Positions 1,145 through 13,089 of a DNA stretch of 14,903 nt are shown piece after piece (position 1 is the first letter of the stretch; each line of letters starts with the position of its first letter). The notes beneath the pieces were generated by a model that saw nothing but the letters and a program-made list of their open reading frames with translations, searched no databases and was not told the origin of the DNA. The stretch is from a virus. Taxonomy: Duplodnaviria; Heunggongvirae; Uroviricota; Caudoviricetes. The stretch is from the IMG/VR virus record IMGVR_UViG_3300029068_000011, positions 1-14,903 of that record; one strand, given 5' to 3'. A program made the position numbers and the translations under genes.

Positions 1145-1333
1145 TCACGAGGACTGAAGTTTCTCGCAATTAAAATTTATCAGTTTTACTTTCTGCTCTC
1201 TGGAAACGCCTGCTTCTTTTTTACCTGAGAGCATTTTTTCGCATTCTGATTTCGTTAGTTTAGATTTTGAATATCTTGTCCAGTTAGTAGGAGTGCCACC
1301 TTCCTTTTCAATTGTAGCGGTAATTTTATACAT
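1145..1333 (-). CDS. ydaC: Small Rac prophage protein of unknown function
   Basis: ORF 1145..1405. Preferred start is ATG 1333 (MYKITATIEKEGG...) because it has a GGAGG Shine-Dalgarno 5 nt upstream; alternative starts at 1345 and 1405 lack one. Overlaps the ralR stop by 8 nt. Confidence 0.6.
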   Translation of the reverse strand: MYKITATIEKEGGTPTNWTRYSKSKLTKSECEKMLSGKKEAGVSREQKVKLINFNCEKLQSS

Positions 1334-1532: not shown

Positions 1533-1576
1533 AAAAACTATCTCACGTTGGCGGTGCATTACACCGCCAGGCTGGA

Positions 1577-2410
1577 TTATTCTTCTGGATTATCGATTAC
1601 ACTGTATTCCCCGGCTATAACCGATATGTCGTCTGGATTAATTGTTTCCACCTCTTTTCCATCCATCGATACTGCACGCTGGATTTCAATAGATACCGGC
1701 AGATACTTGAACAGTTTTCGTATCACTGTCTTTTTGGCCATGTCTTCAAAGTGTTCATCCCAGATGGACGACGCCCCTTTTGACGCTGCGTTTTTTGCCG
1801 CCTTGCTGTGTGTGTCGCGAACTTTTTCTACTTGTTTGCGGGTCATGACTTCAAACTGCACTCCTCCGTCTTTCAGTTTTGCAACAGCATAGACATGGGT
1901 TATAGGGGCATCTTCGTTTTCACCGGGACGATGAACCAGTTTTTCATCAAGGCCAAGTTCATAGCTGAATTCATCACATTCACGGACAACACGAGCTGAC
2001 AGACTGATGATTTGACCTGATCGACGGGCAAGGTCGATCATGCCGCGATAACCGATGATCAGCTGTACGTTCTTCTTACCGTTTTTTGCTTTTCCGTTGC
2101 CGAACGGTAGCAGATATGCATGACCGAGGGCGCTACCTGGCTCAAGTCCGAGCTGTGAACACTGTACGATGGCACCGATAAAACTCGTCGAGTCACAGTT
2201 TCTTAGTTCCGGTACTTTACGGATTTCTGTTGTAGCAATGCGGATCATGCGTTCCGCTGTCATGTGACGTGGCAGAGCTGCTGCCAGTTGCGCTTTCATT
2301 GCCGGGCTGTTAATCACGCACAGCACATCCTTATCGTTAACTGCTGCTGGTGCACGGTTTCCCTGAGTTTTTTGCAGATCGGCTTTTGCGATAGGTGGTT
2401 GCTTAGTCAT
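1577..2410 (-). CDS. recT: RecT single-strand annealing recombinase
   Basis: ORF 1577..2467; start at ATG 2410 ([24 protein letters not shown]...) with an AAGGAG Shine-Dalgarno 7 nt upstream. Overlaps the recE 3' end, as in the recET operon. Confidence 0.9.
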
Positions 2411-5003
2411 TTGCATACTCCTTAGCCCAGCGGGGCAGTGATAACGTCTTAATAGCTGGCCATTCATCGGTATTTAGGCAGTCAGCCAGGGTCCGCAGAT
2501 TGCGGTGATATTCCTGCTGGCCTGCCAGTTTTGCTTCTTCGCCCATCATGAAAATCTCAACCGGATAACGTCCGCATTCAACAGTTGTGCTGGCAACCAG
2601 AAAAACGAAAGTTGGCTGCACACCAAACTGTGCTTCATAACCGTCACTGTAGAATGCATCCTGAACGTGATAGCGGTAGTCGTAATAAGACGTTTTGAAT
2701 CGTTGAATATCCGCTGTGGTTTTCACGTCCATGATCCAGTGAAATTCAGGAATAATTTTGTCCGGACGGCACCGACACAAAATTCCTGTTTCCGGATCTT
2801 CCCAGTAAATTGATGATTCAGCGTGTCCGGCGCTTTCAACAAGTCATTGCCCCAGCGGCAAAGCCATAACGCTTTGATACATGAGTTCAATTTTCCGGCC
2901 TTCTTCCGCAGTGATAACCGTTTTTCCTGTGCTTGCGCATTCCATCAGAAACGCTTTCTCTTCTTCTTTTCCGGCGTTTGTACGGCGGTTAAATTCAGGT
3001 GCTACGATAAAGCGGTTACTAAATTCTTCCGGTTCAAGTACCCGGCAGTGGAAAGCGGTTCCTAAATCGAGCGTTTTTGTCTTTGTAGTGTCCACGGGGG
3101 CATTTTTACGCCACAAATACAGTGCCGGAGTATCAGCAATGTCATCGAGCTGAGACTTACTGACACCGGGACCCGCGTGGTAATTCTCATTCGAAATTCC
3201 GTAATAAATACCGGGCTCTATGTCTTCTACGATTACGGGATCTGCGACTTCGCCAGTTTCATCACTGCAATCGCGATGCGGATCGCTGCCAGCATTCTCA
3301 TTGTGCGGATGTTCAGCGCCTTCCATTTCCTCCGGATCTTTTTCCTTAGCTTCAACCTGATTCTCTTCACCGAATGTTTCCTGGTATGTTGCGTCGCCCA
3401 TCACCGCACCACAGTCAGGGCAGTTATCCCCGCCAGTCTGACCGCAGGCATTGCAGACTATTTCCTGTTCCTGTTGCACTACTGGCTCAGGTTGTTTCGC
3501 ATCCGGGCTGATTATTTCCGTTTCTGGCTGGTTCTGGTACACAGAATCGCGAGTCTGGATCCCCTTTACCCATTTCGGATCGTTCGGGTCGCTAATTCCG
3601 TCAACAAATTCACCACGTGATGCAGCAAGCAATTTATCGGCATCGACAGGATCTTTTGATGGAATGTTTTTTCGGGCTTCATGGAGTTCTGCCCGCAGTT
3701 TCTGATATTTCGCATCAACAGAATTTACCTGTGACTGAGCATCCAGCGGCTGCGTGTCCTGATGATGTTCAGTTGCGTCCGGTTCCATTGTTTCAGCCTC
3801 TCCCTGTTCAACTGCCGTTGTTCCAGATGGTTGCGGTTTTTCTTCATCATCCTGTTTTCCTTCTTCTGTTACTCGCTGCGGCATCGGGGCAGAGGAGCGA
3901 CCGCAGGCAATATCCACGATTTCCGGATCAGGGTTGGCATGATCGGTTTCAGTCAGTACTTTGTTCAGATATTCAGTGACGTGCGCGGGGATGACCTCGA
4001 TCCCAATTGGTGCTTCTTTTACGGACGCAACCACGATGGCGCGGGAATAATCCAGCCCGCCAGGCATGGTGATGAATTTGTCGCGGAAAACAGAAAAGGG
4101 CGGTTTATTTTCAGCGATAATTTCCTCAATGCGTTTAGCGTGTGCCGGATGAAGGTTATAGATGTCCAGATCCATTGAACGGGCCAGTACGCCAGTGGCT
4201 ACGTCGCGCGCCAGTGACGTCAGATCGTGTACGAAACCTTCGCCGCGATCGGTGAGGTTTCCGCCGCCAGCATTAGCACCGGAAGCCGTGCGAGTGATGT
4301 GTGAAACACGATTACCCTTCATCCACTCTTTTGTCAGCAGTCCTCGATCGGTGTAGTCAGCGTTCAGGTATGCTTCGAAAAAAGCAGTTATCAGTCCCAG
4401 GTTTGAATTACCAGGATTAGGGAAAACTTTGTCAGTGTCACGAACCAGTTTGTGGAGTTCGCGAATTTCCAGCGGGTCGAGCAGGCTGGTTTTGTGGGAA
4501 ACAGCCAGGGCAGTAACAGCCGGTAGTTCTTCAGCCCGAGCAATGTGTAATGCCTGGAGTCCGTCGCGTGAAACGTGCGTTACCGGTTTTTCGCTGCCGT
4601 GTTGAGCAAGCCAACGAATGGGCAGTTCCTGGCCAGAAATTGGGAGTAGCATATTCTCCTCAATCTCAGTCATGTCTTCGCCGTTGACGTTGGTATTGCC
4701 TTGATAGTGAGCGTTGTCTGGTGCTGCTCCCGGTTTTAGTTCCCATGTCATGGAGTCTTTGCTGAGTTGATAGCGTTCACTCCAGGTAAAATCGATCTCA
4801 CCTTCAGCGGGCAGGTCATTAACGACAGGAAAATTCGTGGCAACAGCTTTAAAATAGCTGCTCAGTTTTTTACCTGACTTAACGATCAGGTAGTCCAGAG
4901 TGGCACAGGTCGATTCAAAATCGTTGCTTGCCCACAGGACGACGTCAGGTTCACCGGATGATTTTTTCGCTTTCCGTAACAGGAAGAGTGGTTTTGTGCT
5001 CAT
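2403..5003 (-). pseudogene. recE: recE exonuclease VIII reading frame interrupted by one in-frame TGA at 2844-2846 (codon 720 of an otherwise continuous 866-codon frame)
   Basis: ORFs 2844..5003 (719 aa) and 2403..2780 (125 aa) are in the same frame, separated by 21 sense codons ([21 protein letters not shown]) and a single TGA. 719+1+21+125 = 866, the length I recall for intact RecE. GAGG Shine-Dalgarno upstream of ATG 5003. Confidence 0.85.
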
Positions 5004-5454: not shown

Positions 5455-5625
5455 TTAAAGTTCATGTGCCATCTGGTCTTTTTCGGCACAAGCTTCACTG
5501 CAATATTTTCTCGGTTCGTCTTTTGATAAAATCCCGTGCATGAAGTGAAGCATTCTTTCAATAGCTTTGCTTTCTTCAACGTCTTTTTTGCAAAGGTGGT
5601 AAGCACATTTTATTTTCTTAGTCAT
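5455..5625 (-). CDS. ydaE: Small Cys/His-rich putative zinc-binding protein (56 aa)
   Basis: Not in the supplied ORF track (under 60 aa). My translation: [56 protein letters not shown]. Its ATG overlaps the kilR stop (ATGA); GGAG Shine-Dalgarno upstream. Confidence 0.7.
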   Translation of the reverse strand: MTKKIKCAYHLCKKDVEESKAIERMLHFMHGILSKDEPRKYCSEACAEKDQMAHEL

Positions 5626-5846
5626 CACCATGACTCCGCCTTTACAGGTAAACCATCACGACCGAGGAAGGCTTTAATCATGCGGTCAGTAATGCATGTT
5701 TTTGTGGTCAGGTTACGAATATATAGTTTTCGCTTTTTAATATTGTTTGCCGAGGCAATATATGTCCGGCCTTCATGAAGAACATAATCGCCAGGAGTCA
5801 CACACTGACGTGGTATTTCATCAGTTCCGAAGTGATGTGCAATCAT
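5625..5846 (-). CDS. kilR: KilR cell-division inhibitor (73 aa)
   Basis: ORF 5625..5858; start at ATG 5846 ([14 protein letters not shown]...) with a GGAGA Shine-Dalgarno 5-6 nt upstream; the ATG at 5858 has none. Confidence 0.85.
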
Positions 5847-6020
5847 AATTATCTCCATTTTTACAAATGAACTTTGTTGATGCGGTGCCTGGTGCCTCCA
5901 GGTGACTGCAACCAGTTAACAATTACAGTCGGCTTTCCCACCCAAACCAATAAGGACTAACATGACTTTTAACTGTGCCACGTGCGCTTAGCCGCATTCA
6001 CCGCATCACAAAATTCACTT

Positions 6021-6069
6021 TAAAAAGGGCGGACATCAGCCGAACTTCAAGAAAAAAACTGATGCCGCC
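6021..6069 (-). terminator. Candidate intrinsic terminator for leftward transcription upstream of kilR-ydaE-racC-recET (tL-like)
   Basis: On the minus strand: GGCGGCAUCAG, a 19-nt loop, CUGAUGUCCGCC (11 bp with one bulge, GC-rich base), immediately followed by CUUUUUAAAG. The long loop lowers confidence. Confidence 0.35.
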
Positions 6070-6287
6070 AGGACTACACACAGCAATGTCGTTATTTACA
6101 ACCGGAGGCGCACTCCCACCATTTAAATTTAACAGACAAGACCGACTCTTTATGGATATCGGAAATGCGCCTTCGTGTTGTGCCCGGTTTTATTTCACCA
6201 CCTCCGGGCTTCGGTGGTCTCGGCTATACCCCTACAGCGAGAGCTTGTGTTAACATTTCAATACCCTTACAGTTGAGAGTTATTGAT

Positions 6288-7242: not shown

Positions 7243-7271
7243 ACTATAGGTAATGCCTAATTGATTGTCAA
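7243..7271 (-). promoter_or_regulatory. Leftward sigma70 promoter (pL-like): -35 TTGACA (7266-7271), 17-nt spacer, -10 TATAGT (7243-7248)
   Basis: Hexamers read directly on the minus strand. Operator-like GCCTAAT repeats overlap the spacer and abut the -35. Confidence 0.5.
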
Positions 7272-7308
7272 TAGGCTATGCCTAATGTTTTAAGCGTAAC
7301 CTAATAGG
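7246..7308. promoter_or_regulatory. Left operator cluster: ataggtaatgcctaat (7246-7261), ataggctatgcctaat (7271-7286), cctaatagg (7300-7308)
   Basis: Seen directly. The 16-mer at 7271-7286 is the exact reverse complement of attaggcatagcctat at 7911-7926 on the other side of racR. Confidence 0.5.
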
Positions 7309-7381: not shown

Positions 7382-7858
7382 TTAAGTTCCAGTTTTTGTG
7401 ATGTTCTGGCTTTTCCGTTCAGATTCTAGAGCTTTCAGATACTTACCCACTTTCATTTCCATCGCTGCTATGTAGGCGCGAACATCGTGGTCAACCCAAT
7501 CTGGTTCTGTAGCATTTCCAGATAACAGGAAAGCTACAATCGCTCTTATTTCATCAGAGGCTGCTTGATAAAGGTTGTTTATATCTAAAAGTTCACTTTT
7601 TGTATCTGGATTGGTGGGGGTTGGTATGGGGTATTCGTTAAGCCCCCAATGCTCTGGACCAACAACATCAGCAAAGAAACGCCATAATTCTGGAAGTTTA
7701 TCTTTACTTATGGAGCCTTTCTTAATCCAGTCATAGATTGATGGTGGTTGGACTTTGAAGTGGCGTGCGACCTCCGCCTTTGATTTGACGGATCCCGATG
7801 CGATTTTTTTGTTAATGGCCTGCTCTATCGCTCGGCCTAAGTCTTTACCACTAAGCAT
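7382..7858 (-). CDS. racR: Rac prophage repressor (cI-like, 158 aa)
   Basis: ORF 7382..7858 with an AGGAGA Shine-Dalgarno upstream; divergent from the cro-like ydaS. Matches recalled RacR. Confidence 0.9.
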   Translation of the reverse strand: MLSGKDLGRAIEQAINKKIASGSVKSKAEVARHFKVQPPSIYDWIKKGSISKDKLPELWRFFADVVGPEHWGLNEYPIPTPTNPDTKSELLDINNLYQAASDEIRAIVAFLLSGNATEPDWVDHDVRAYIAAMEMKVGKYLKALESERKSQNITKTGT

Positions 7859-7885
7859 TGCTTAATATTCTCCTATGCTCATTGC

Positions 7886-7953
7886 ATTAGGCAATCCCTA
7901 CTCTCATTGTATTAGGCATAGCCTATTGACATTTGTATTAGGCGTCGCCTAAT
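7886..7953. promoter_or_regulatory. Right operator cluster: attaggcaat (7886-7895), attaggcatagcctat (7911-7926), 17-bp perfect palindrome attaggcgtcgcctaat (7937-7953)
   Basis: Seen directly in the racR-ydaS divergent intergenic region. The sites overlap the -35, spacer and -10 of the rightward promoter. Confidence 0.55.
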
Positions 7954-12933: not shown

Positions 12934-13089
12934 TTACATACTGGCTAGAAAAAAGGTGTTACCTTGGTTTATCTTTGTCCGGCAAGGTGCGCTCATTAAT
13001 CTTAAGTAAATTTATTGCTCAAGTATTCAGATTACTTCTTATGGTTGAAGTCTCCTGTCAATGTAGAACCAATATATTTACAAAAATGA

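What the first reader, a model, noticed from the sequence alone, without database searches (positions are those of the whole stretch)
6021..6069. Candidate tL-like intrinsic terminator between the ydaG-ydaF/sieB region and kilR-recET
On the minus strand, a GC-based 11-bp stem followed by CUUUUU sits upstream of kilR. If the leftward promoter at 7243-7271 is the only promoter for the kilR-ydaE-racC-recE-recT-ralR operon, this terminator plus RacR repression would explain why recET-type genes are silent in wild-type cells. No N-like antiterminator is evident in the window, so how (or whether) readthrough occurs is open.
Basis: inference. Interest (0 to 1): 0.45.

Follow-up and report, generated by a model that had tools for sequence, protein, structure and literature searches.

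The report
Terminator of the known KilS sRNA
The hairpin is a real transcription terminator, but it is already known as the 3' end of KilS, a small Hfq-dependent RNA of the E. coli Rac prophage, which this work shows to be a diverged copy of the cell-division regulator DicF sitting just upstream of the toxic kilR gene.

Summary
On the minus strand, GGCGGCAUCAG (6069-6059) pairs with CUGAUG-U-CCGCC (6039-6028) across a 19-nt loop, followed by C and UUUUU (6027-6022). It folds at -19.5 kcal/mol (z -3.3). It is the strongest hairpin-plus-T5 in the window, and no shuffle of the window matched it.

It is not an unrecognised tL-like terminator. Window 6119..6022(-) is identical over 98/98 nt to the annotated MG1655 ncRNA kilS (b4833). 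KilS was predicted from Hfq RIL-seq and verified by northern blot. It has its own TSS (=6119) and an RNase E site (=6088), and its 3' end lies at the last U.

New here: KilS is the Rac allele of DicF. The site scores 39.1 bits on Rfam DicF (threshold 48). At the same place upstream of kil, other Rac-like prophages score 75 and 54.7 bits. The downstream leader is about 90% identical to the dicF-dicB leader. All 43 variants keep a hairpin plus U4-6.

A second promoter lies 98 nt upstream. Loss of RacR induces genes on both sides of the hairpin. Published work attributes kilR silencing to RacR plus Rho/NusG. The terminator is therefore leaky.

Novelty: already known. Interest: low to moderate.

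The parts
6022..6119 (-). KilS sRNA (kilS, b4833), 98 nt
   Evidence: Identical 98/98 to NC_000913.3 1418405..1418502(-), which is annotated 'small RNA KilS'. Bar et al. [quoted passage not shown]
6028..6069 (-). Terminator hairpin of KilS (11-bp stem with bulged U6033, 19-nt loop); homologous to the DicF terminator hairpin
   Evidence: Fold of -19.5 kcal/mol, z -3.3. Best hairpin-plus-T5 in the window, with 0 of 30 shuffles as good. Rfam DicF match at 6082..6027, 39.1 bits, E 1.3e-5. The hairpin is kept in all 43 unique variants.
6022..6027 (-). C spacer plus U5 tract; the annotated KilS 3' end is at the last U (6022)
   Evidence: A U-run of 4-6 is conserved in all variants.
6126..6134 (-). 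Probable extended -10 promoter of kilS (TGtTAAATT; TG at -15/-14, hexamer at -12..-7 relative to the TSS at 6119)
   Evidence: Read from the sequence. TSS 1418502 = window 6119 is from published TSS maps listed in Bar et al. Supplementary Table 6. The block TTGTCTGTTAAATTTAAATGG is conserved in KilS-type loci even where the sequence further upstream differs. The promoter assignment itself is inferred.
6087..6089 (-). Published RNase E cleavage site (1418471 = window 6088) inside KilS; it aligns within 1 nt of the RNase E-generated 5' end of DicF
   Evidence: (site) and alignment A1 with the dicF annotation.
5847..6021 (-). kilR leader, homologous to the dicF-dicB leader; sub-threshold STnc100-like
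   Evidence: Alignment A1 is about 90% identical over the leader. Rfam STnc100 scores 35.5 bits (threshold 47) at 6025..5839. About 80% matches to window 5866-6041 occur in more than 2,400 E. coli genomes.
5625..5846 (-). kilR (FtsZ inhibitor), the first gene downstream of the terminator
   Evidence: Annotation of matching records.
7243..7303 (-). pL-like leftward promoter (TTGACA-17-TATAGT, 7271..7243) with three operator-like palindromes TAGGCnnnGCCTA (7247-7259, 7272-7284, 7291-7303)
   Evidence: The same palindrome occurs four times in the racR-ydaS intergenic region at 7852-7951.

Best explanation
The hairpin plus U-tract is the Rho-independent terminator and 3' module of KilS. KilS is a 98-nt Hfq-dependent sRNA of the Rac prophage, transcribed leftward from its own promoter (TSS 6119) in ordinary lysogens, mainly in stationary phase.

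Shown: sequence identity to annotated kilS; published northern blot, TSS, RNase E site and 3' end; the fold of the hairpin; homology to DicF.

KilS is the Rac allele of DicF. It occupies the same slot in the early-left operon, just upstream of a conserved leader and a cell-division inhibitor gene (kilR here, dicB in Qin). It shares the GGCGG...CCGCC-C-UUUUU terminator and an RNase E site aligned with the DicF 5' end. Its 5' segment and loop differ from DicF, so it probably has different targets.

Inferred mechanism:
(a) Termination at the U-tract gives KilS the hairpin plus oligo-U 3' end that Hfq-binding sRNAs need.
(b) The same terminator stops most transcription that starts at the kilS promoter, and some that arrives from upstream, from entering toxic kilR. 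It therefore acts as a leaky insulator, not as the main lock.
(c) The main locks on kilR-recET are RacR repression of the pL-like promoter and Rho/NusG termination. When either fails, polymerases read through the hairpin.
(d) On read-through transcripts, RNase E cleavage at 6088 could release a DicF-like short form.
For: - Identity with kilS b4833: 98/98 nt, with the 3' end at 6022.
- The hairpin is stable and non-random.
- DicF homology: Rfam DicF gives 39.1 bits, E 1.3e-5, in the window. At the same site upstream of kil, an O145:H28 Rac-like prophage scores 75 bits and an O157:H7 chimera with a KilS 5' part and a DicF loop scores 54.7 bits; Qin dicF itself scores 76.7.
- The flanking leader is about 90% identical to dicF-dicB.
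- 43 unique variants, collected by anchoring on the leader rather than on the hairpin, all keep a hairpin of -9 to -22 kcal/mol plus U4-6.
- The shared stem pairs are 97.3% paired, with a GGUGG/CCACC double change, and 0 of 500 shuffles reach the observed values.
- sRNA type and downstream gene recombine: DicF+DicB 91, KilS+KilR 30, DicF+KilR 3, KilS+DicB 1.
- Leakiness: loss of RacR induces genes on both sides of the hairpin, and Rho/NusG defects act through kil.
Against: - No termination efficiency has been measured for this site, so the insulator role is inferred.
- The terms searched (kilR, sieB, 1418404-1418406) did not occur in the held supplementary text of one E. coli 3'-end mapping study, so I could not confirm a Term-seq 3' end independently.
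- The Rfam DicF score is below the family threshold, and the DicF loop element ACUCCG is absent, so KilS may not share DicF's targets.
- My pairing calculations against ftsZ and yncL did not beat shuffled controls, even for the known DicF-ftsZ pair, so they say nothing either way.
- The promoter assignment (extended -10) rests on sequence plus a published TSS, not on a promoter assay.
Confidence: 0.85

Rival explanations
1. The hairpin is a tL1-like barrier terminator of the RacR-controlled early-left operon. Together with RacR repression it is what keeps kilR-recET-ralR silent, and some unknown antitermination is needed to pass it.
For: - It lies in the path from the pL-like promoter (7271-7243) to kilR.
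- That promoter carries RacR-type operator palindromes.
- No N-like family is found in ydaG or ydaF.
- It is a real terminator.
Against: - Depleting RacR alone induces ydaG/ydaF and also kilR through intR, to similar extents (40-70-fold; same pattern). No separate antitermination signal seems to be needed.
- Rho/NusG defects are lethal through kil, and this is attributed to read-through from racR.
- A separate promoter fires 98 nt upstream of the U-tract end in repressed lysogens, so the terminator's demonstrated job is to end KilS.
Confidence: 0.25
2. Regulated attenuator. KilS is mainly the by-product of premature termination in the kilR 5' UTR. The choice between termination and read-through at this hairpin would be the regulated step that sets kilR expression, for example through Hfq, another sRNA or growth phase.
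For: - Bar et al. class KilS as '5' UTR of kilR'.
- The TSS at 6119 is the nearest mapped start upstream of kilR.
- kilR is transiently induced under oxidative stress.
- The hairpin plus leader are conserved as a unit in front of two unrelated division inhibitors, KilR and DicB.
Against: - I found no alternative antiterminator pairing; the terminator hairpin persists in the 161-nt context fold.
- The stress induction of kilR is published as working through NusG/Rho, not through this hairpin.
- KilS engages a trans partner on Hfq (yncL), as a bona fide sRNA does.
Confidence: 0.2
3. Decaying DicF relic. The element is a degenerate DicF pseudogene with no trans-acting role. Only the terminator is kept by selection, because it protects the host from kilR.
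For: - The Rfam DicF score is below threshold (39.1 against 48), and the DicF seed regions are replaced.
- KilS has few RIL-seq interactions (3) and a low sRNA score.
Against: - The KilS-type sequence is 99% or more identical in about 1,300 E. coli genomes, and at least 80% of its length is found in 1,835 of 5,426.
- It is also present in inducible Rac-like phages.
- The promoter block and the 5' segment are conserved among KilS-type loci.
- The RNA is Hfq-dependent and accumulates in stationary phase.
Confidence: 0.15
4. Chance hairpin with no function.
For: The unusually long 19-nt loop, and the fact that the generic scan did not list it.
Against: - z -3.3.
- It is the best hairpin-plus-T5 in the window, and 0 of 30 shuffles are as good.
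- It is conserved with compensatory changes.
- A mapped sRNA end lies on it.
Confidence: 0.01

Closest known systems
KilS sRNA (kilS, b4833) of E. coli K-12 Rac prophage (Bar et al. 2021, PMC8175672)
   Same: Identical sequence (98/98), the same position between sieB and kilR, and the same 3' end on the U-tract.
   Different: Nothing differs; the finding is this feature. The window comes from a strain whose Rac is about 97.5% identical to MG1655 overall.
DicF sRNA (Rfam RF00039) of the Qin prophage dicB operon
   Same: - The same slot in a lambdoid early-left operon: after DUF1391-type small ORFs and before a conserved leader and a division-inhibitor gene.
- The same GGCGG...CCGCC-C-UUUUU terminator.
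- An RNase E site aligned with the DicF 5' end.
- A flanking leader about 90% identical.
- Canonical DicF occupies this very site upstream of kil in other Rac-like prophages.
   Different: - KilS has its own TSS and a 31-nt 5' extension with a stem-loop.
- Relative to Qin-type loci, about 115 nt of upstream sequence is missing.
- The 5' seed is different (AUUGCUGUGUGUAGUCC against UUUCUGGUGACGUU).
- The loop is a different 19-nt sequence lacking ACUCCG.
- The stem is a continuous 11 bp with a bulge, at -19.5 against -15.9 kcal/mol.
- The Rfam score is below threshold.
Lambda tL1 / N-nut antitermination system
   Same: A terminator in the leftward early operon downstream of a repressor-controlled promoter.
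   Different: - No N-like protein family is detected.
- No boxA was recognised.
- Read-through follows loss of RacR alone.
- The terminator ends a separately promoted sRNA.
5' UTR-derived sRNAs made by premature intrinsic termination (class described by Adams et al. 2021, PMC7815308)
   Same: An sRNA that starts at the mRNA-proximal TSS and ends at an intrinsic terminator upstream of the ORF.
   Different: Here the element is a mobile, recombining prophage cassette with a clear sRNA ancestor (DicF). The searched terms for this site did not occur in that study's held supplementary text.

Membership tests
Rho-independent (intrinsic) terminator | G+C-rich stem directly followed (within 2 nt) by a run of U | tested here: met
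   11-bp stem with 8 G-C pairs, then C plus UUUUU. It is the strongest such site in the window.
Rho-independent (intrinsic) terminator | Short loop (typically 3-8 nt) | tested here: not met
   The loop is 19 nt. RNAfold closes two extra pairs and a 4-bp inner helix, leaving a smaller effective loop. Related variants have loops of 8-15 nt.
Rho-independent (intrinsic) terminator | RNA 3' ends map to the U-tract in vivo, or termination is seen in vitro | not testable with these tools
   Literature only. The annotated KilS 3' end at 1418405 (= 6022) comes from RNA-seq, and the size was confirmed by northern blot. The searched terms for this site did not occur in the held supplements of one Term-seq study. 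No efficiency has been measured.
KilS (b4833) | Sequence identity and position between sieB and kilR in Rac | tested here: met
   98/98 nt identical, with the same neighbours.
DicF (Rfam RF00039) | Covariance-model score at or above the gathering threshold (48 bits) | tested here: not met
   39.1 bits, E 1.3e-5. The same site scores 75 and 54.7 bits in L004 and L005, and Qin dicF scores 76.7.
DicF (Rfam RF00039) | Location in the early-left operon of a lambdoid prophage, upstream of the conserved leader of a division-inhibitor gene | tested here: met
   Alignment A1, annotations and the module table.
DicF (Rfam RF00039) | 5' end generated by RNase E at a conserved position about 15-20 nt before the hairpin | tested here: met
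   The published RNase E site at 1418471 (= 6088) aligns within 1 nt of the annotated DicF 5' end. The cleavage itself was not tested here.
DicF (Rfam RF00039) | DicF seed sequences (5' UUUCUGGUGACG and loop ACUCCGUGAC) that pair with xylR/pykA and ftsZ | tested here: not met
   Both segments are replaced in KilS. The pairing calculation was uninformative.
Lambda-type N/nut antitermination at tL | N-like protein encoded as the first gene after pL | tested here: not met
   ydaG has no significant Pfam family and ydaF is DUF1391.
Lambda-type N/nut antitermination at tL | nut site (boxA plus boxB hairpin) between pL and the terminator | tested here: inconclusive
   No boxA was recognised by eye. 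A conserved, covarying hairpin lies at about 6180-6225(-); in relatives it reads CCCUG-AAAAGY-CAGGG and only faintly resembles boxB. It was not tested further.

The most novel reading that the evidence does not exclude
KilS and DicF would be alleles of one modular prophage sRNA cassette that sits at a fixed site in lambdoid early-left operons. The constant part is the terminator hairpin, the U-tract and the downstream leader. The variable parts recombine: at least four 5' 'seed' segments, at least five loop or inner-stem types, and two unrelated division-inhibitor genes (kilR, dicB). On this reading prophages swap sRNA seeds, and so host targets, on a fixed Hfq-binding and terminator scaffold that also gates a toxic gene. 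I did not find this relationship stated in the papers I could search (KilS occurs in one paper, which never mentions DicF).
Probability: 0.55. Interest if true: 0.45.

Novelty: already known. Interest (0 to 1): 0.22.

Why it matters
The feature itself is annotated and adds nothing new. Three points are useful.

(1) The idea that an intrinsic terminator explains why recET is silent is corrected. The documented locks are RacR and Rho/NusG, and this hairpin is leaky.

(2) KilS, so far an orphan sRNA with one proposed target, is placed in the DicF family. That gives it a processing model (RNase E 5' end, terminator 3' end) and a comparative series for finding its seed and targets.

(3) The locus shows seed-swapping on a constant terminator scaffold next to toxic division inhibitors. 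This is relevant to how prophage sRNAs diversify.

Tried and rejected
- The generic terminator scan does not list the site because of its loop limit of 8 nt. I replaced it with a custom scan.
- Independent 3'-end evidence: the searched terms (kilR, sieB, 1418404-1418406) did not occur in the held supplements of Adams et al. 2021. Ju et al. 2019, Cardinale et al. 2008 and Faubladier & Bouche 1994 are not held. The supplements of the racR CRISPRi preprint are not held, so I could not compare fold changes across the terminator.
- Target prediction: full-length RNAduplex gave meaningless long duplexes. Windowed duplexes of the KilS linker and loop against ftsZ and yncL did not beat shuffles, and neither did the known DicF-ftsZ pair, so the method is uninformative. 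A 10-bp match of KilS UGCUGUGUGU to the yncL 3' region exists but is not significant.
- Bidirectional terminator: rejected. On the + strand the hairpin is followed by AGGACUACAC, with no U-run.
- N-like antiterminator: no Pfam support in ydaG or ydaF.
- A single consensus structure for the whole stem across the family: not possible. The inner stem pairs in different registers in the DicF, KilS and third-type variants, so only the 8 shared pairs were counted.

Full report
**Where the window comes from.** The window is the Rac prophage of E. coli. Window 5600-6800 matches about 1,365 complete E. coli genomes over its full length at roughly 99-100%. Matching records carry the gene order recT, recE, racC, ydaE, kilR (minus strand), sieB (plus strand), ydaF, ydaG, racR (minus strand), then ydaS, ydaT and onward (plus strand). 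The window is about 97.5% identical to MG1655 Rac overall.

**The observation.** On the minus strand, GGCGGCAUCAG (6069-6059) pairs with CUGAUG-U-CCGCC (6039-6028) around a 19-nt loop. C6027, UUUUU (6026-6022) and A6021 follow.
- RNAfold gives -19.5 kcal/mol, z = -3.32, and 1 of 200 shuffles folds as well.
- The hairpin is kept when 161 nt of context are folded.
- The generic scan missed it because it allows loops of at most 8 nt.
- I scanned every run of five or more T on both strands. This is the most stable hairpin that closes next to a U-run anywhere in the window. None of 30 dinucleotide-preserving shuffles of the window produced one as good.

**What it is.** The current MG1655 annotation has an ncRNA, kilS (b4833, 'small RNA KilS'), at 1418405..1418502 on the minus strand, between kilR and sieB. 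That 98-nt sequence occurs unchanged at window 6022..6119.

KilS comes from Bar et al. 2021 (PMC8175672):
- It was predicted from Hfq RIL-seq data as 'sieB.kilR.IGR'.
- It was verified by northern blot in wild-type K-12 but not in delta-hfq, accumulates in stationary phase, and has a size that agrees with RNA-seq.
- Their Supplementary Table 6 lists a published TSS at 1418502 (= window 6119) and an RNase E site at 1418471 (= window 6088).
- They conclude that KilS can be transcribed from an independent promoter, and they list yncL as its RIL-seq partner.

Upstream of the TSS the sequence reads TGtTAAATT, with TG at -15/-14 and the hexamer at -12 to -7. This is an extended -10 element (my reading). 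The block is conserved in KilS-type loci even where the sequence further upstream is unrelated.

**Relationship to DicF.** A permissive Rfam scan of the window gave four hits:
- RalA, 218 bits, at 1149-1327.
- DicF (RF00039) at 6082..6027(-), 39.1 bits against a threshold of 48, E = 1.3e-5.
- STnc100 at 6025..5839(-), 35.5 bits against a threshold of 47.
- A chance miRNA hit.

I aligned the KilS-kilR stretch with the Qin dicF-dicB stretch of MG1655. The identity is clear through UGGCGG-AUCAGUUUU and CCGCCCUUUUUAAAGUGAAUUUUGUGAUG, and the roughly 170-nt leader is about 90% identical. The DicF 5' end, which the literature attributes to RNase E (cited), aligns within one nucleotide of the published RNase E site in KilS.

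The decisive evidence is allelism. In the Rac-like prophage of E. coli O145:H28 RM12581 (recE, a racC-sized phage gene, ydaE, kil), a canonical DicF scoring 75 bits lies at exactly this position, about 180 nt upstream of kil. In an O157:H7 prophage, a chimera with the KilS 5' segment and a DicF-type loop scores 54.7 bits. Qin dicF scores 76.7 bits. The window's 39.1 bits is the far end of this graded series.

**Comparative sampling.** To avoid circularity, I collected loci by anchoring on the conserved leader (TGATGNGGTGAATGCGGC) rather than on the hairpin.
- This gave 44 unique upstream sequences. 43 have a hairpin of -9 to -22 kcal/mol followed by 4-6 U. The KilS type (-19.5) is more stable than the DicF type (-15.9).
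- For the eight pairs shared by all types, 97.3% of cells are paired. There is a GGUGG/CCACC double change and G-C to C-G swaps. 0 of 500 shuffles reach the observed pairing or covariation score. That control can overstate significance for related sequences.
- The family is mosaic. There are four 5' segments: DicF UUUUCUGGUGACG; KilS AUUGCUGUGUGUAGUCC; CCAUGUUGAUUACC; and CCAUGUGUAGUC. There are at least five loop or inner-stem types.
- These combine with either dicB or kilR downstream: DicF+DicB 91 loci, KilS+KilR 30, DicF+KilR 3, KilS 5' segment with DicF loop + KilR 2, KilS+DicB 1.
- KilS-type loci lack about 115 nt that Qin-type loci carry between the conserved GUGCGCYUCCGGUUGU block and the seed.
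- At least 80% of the length of the KilS-type sequence is found in 1,835 of 5,426 complete E. coli genomes. It is also present in inducible Rac-like phages.

It is shown that this is the 3' end of an Hfq-dependent sRNA with its own start site. From established knowledge of Hfq sRNAs, whose terminator hairpin plus oligo-U tail is required for Hfq action (Otaka et al. 2011, cited), the hairpin and U-tract should be both the terminator and the Hfq-binding 3' module.

I infer that the terminator also shields kilR from the kilS promoter, which fires in repressed lysogens only 273 nt upstream of the kilR start codon.

The RacR part is supported. The strong leftward promoter at 7271-7243 is overlapped by three copies of the palindrome TAGGCnnnGCCTA, and four more copies lie in the racR-ydaS region where RacR binds.

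The terminator part is weak, for three reasons:
- CRISPRi silencing of racR derepresses ydaG and also kilR, ydaE, racC, recE, recT, ralR, xisR and intR.
- Titration of RacR by a foreign regulator raised ydaF and ydaG as well as kilR, ydaE, racC, ydaC and ralA by 40-70-fold.
- Published work attributes kilR silencing to Rho/NusG. Rho-defective cells die because of kil, a Rho-dependent terminator 'trac' was mapped inside racR, and OxyS induces kilR by lowering NusG.

Polymerases that escape RacR or Rho therefore pass this hairpin, so it is leaky. No N-like family is present in ydaG or ydaF (ydaF is DUF1391, like Qin ydfA). None seems to be needed.

**What remains open.**
- The efficiency of the terminator has never been measured, as far as I could find.
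- The searched terms for this site did not occur in the held supplements of one E. coli 3'-end study, and other relevant papers are not held.
- My attempts to predict KilS pairing with ftsZ or yncL were uninformative.
- Whether KilS retains any DicF-like function is unknown. It lacks both DicF seed segments, including the ACUCCG loop motif.

**Verdict.** The feature is already known as the terminator of KilS. The added value is the placement of KilS as the Rac allele of DicF within a recombining prophage sRNA cassette. I did not find that relationship in the searchable literature: KilS occurs in one paper, which does not mention DicF.

Noticed in passing
window 6135-6235 (minus strand): A block of about 100 nt upstream of the kilS promoter (ACCACCGAAGCCCGGAGGUGGUGAAAUAAAACCGGGCACAACACGAAGGCGCAUUUCC...) is conserved in other prophages whatever gene lies upstream. 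It is homologous to the Qin ydfC-dicF intergenic region. It contains a hairpin with compensatory changes (GCCCGG/CCGGGC, GCCUG/CAGGC, CCCUG/CAGGG with loop AAAAGY, faintly boxB-like), followed by conserved CACAACACGAARGCGC. Its function is unknown; it could be a nut-like or processing element.
   Followed up: partly
window 5839-6025 (minus strand): The kilR leader gives a sub-threshold Rfam STnc100 hit (35.5 bits, threshold 47) and is about 90% identical to the dicB leader. About 80% matches to 5866-6041 occur in more than 2,400 E. coli genomes. It looks like a conserved structured 5' UTR shared by two unrelated division-inhibitor genes.
   Followed up: partly
window 7247-7303 and 7852-7951: The palindrome TAGGCnnnGCCTA (up to 2 mismatches) occurs three times over the pL-like promoter and four times in the racR-ydaS intergenic region. 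These are candidate OL and OR operators of RacR. There are 8 matches in the window against 3.9 expected by chance, and seven of them fall in these two places.
   Followed up: partly
window 2403-5003 (minus strand), codon 720 (about 2844-2846): recE carries an in-frame stop at codon 720 of 866 (…ALPLGQ*LVESAG…), which truncates the C-terminal region. In this strain recE is probably a pseudogene.
   Followed up: partly
window about 1537-1575 (minus strand): The second-best hairpin-plus-U5 in the window (AUCCAGCCUGGCGGUGUAAUGCACCGCCAACGUGAGAU then UUUUU, -17.6 kcal/mol) lies just downstream of recT and before ralR. It is a candidate terminator or attenuator inside the left operon.
   Followed up: no
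window 1149-1327 (plus strand): The RalA antitoxin sRNA is present and intact (Rfam RF02694, 218 bits, full length).
   Followed up: no
L005 3903-4091 (E. coli O157:H7 prophage): In the O157:H7 relative, a Rha-family regulator gene together with C4 antisense RNA and isrK (both above Rfam thresholds) is inserted between the DicF/KilS-type hairpin and kilR. The sRNA and kilR are therefore not always adjacent.
   Followed up: no
window about 13050-13086 (minus strand): A third strong hairpin-plus-U5 (AGACCCGGCAGGGCUAUCCCCGACGGGUCU, -16.5 kcal/mol) was found. Its context was not examined.
   Followed up: no
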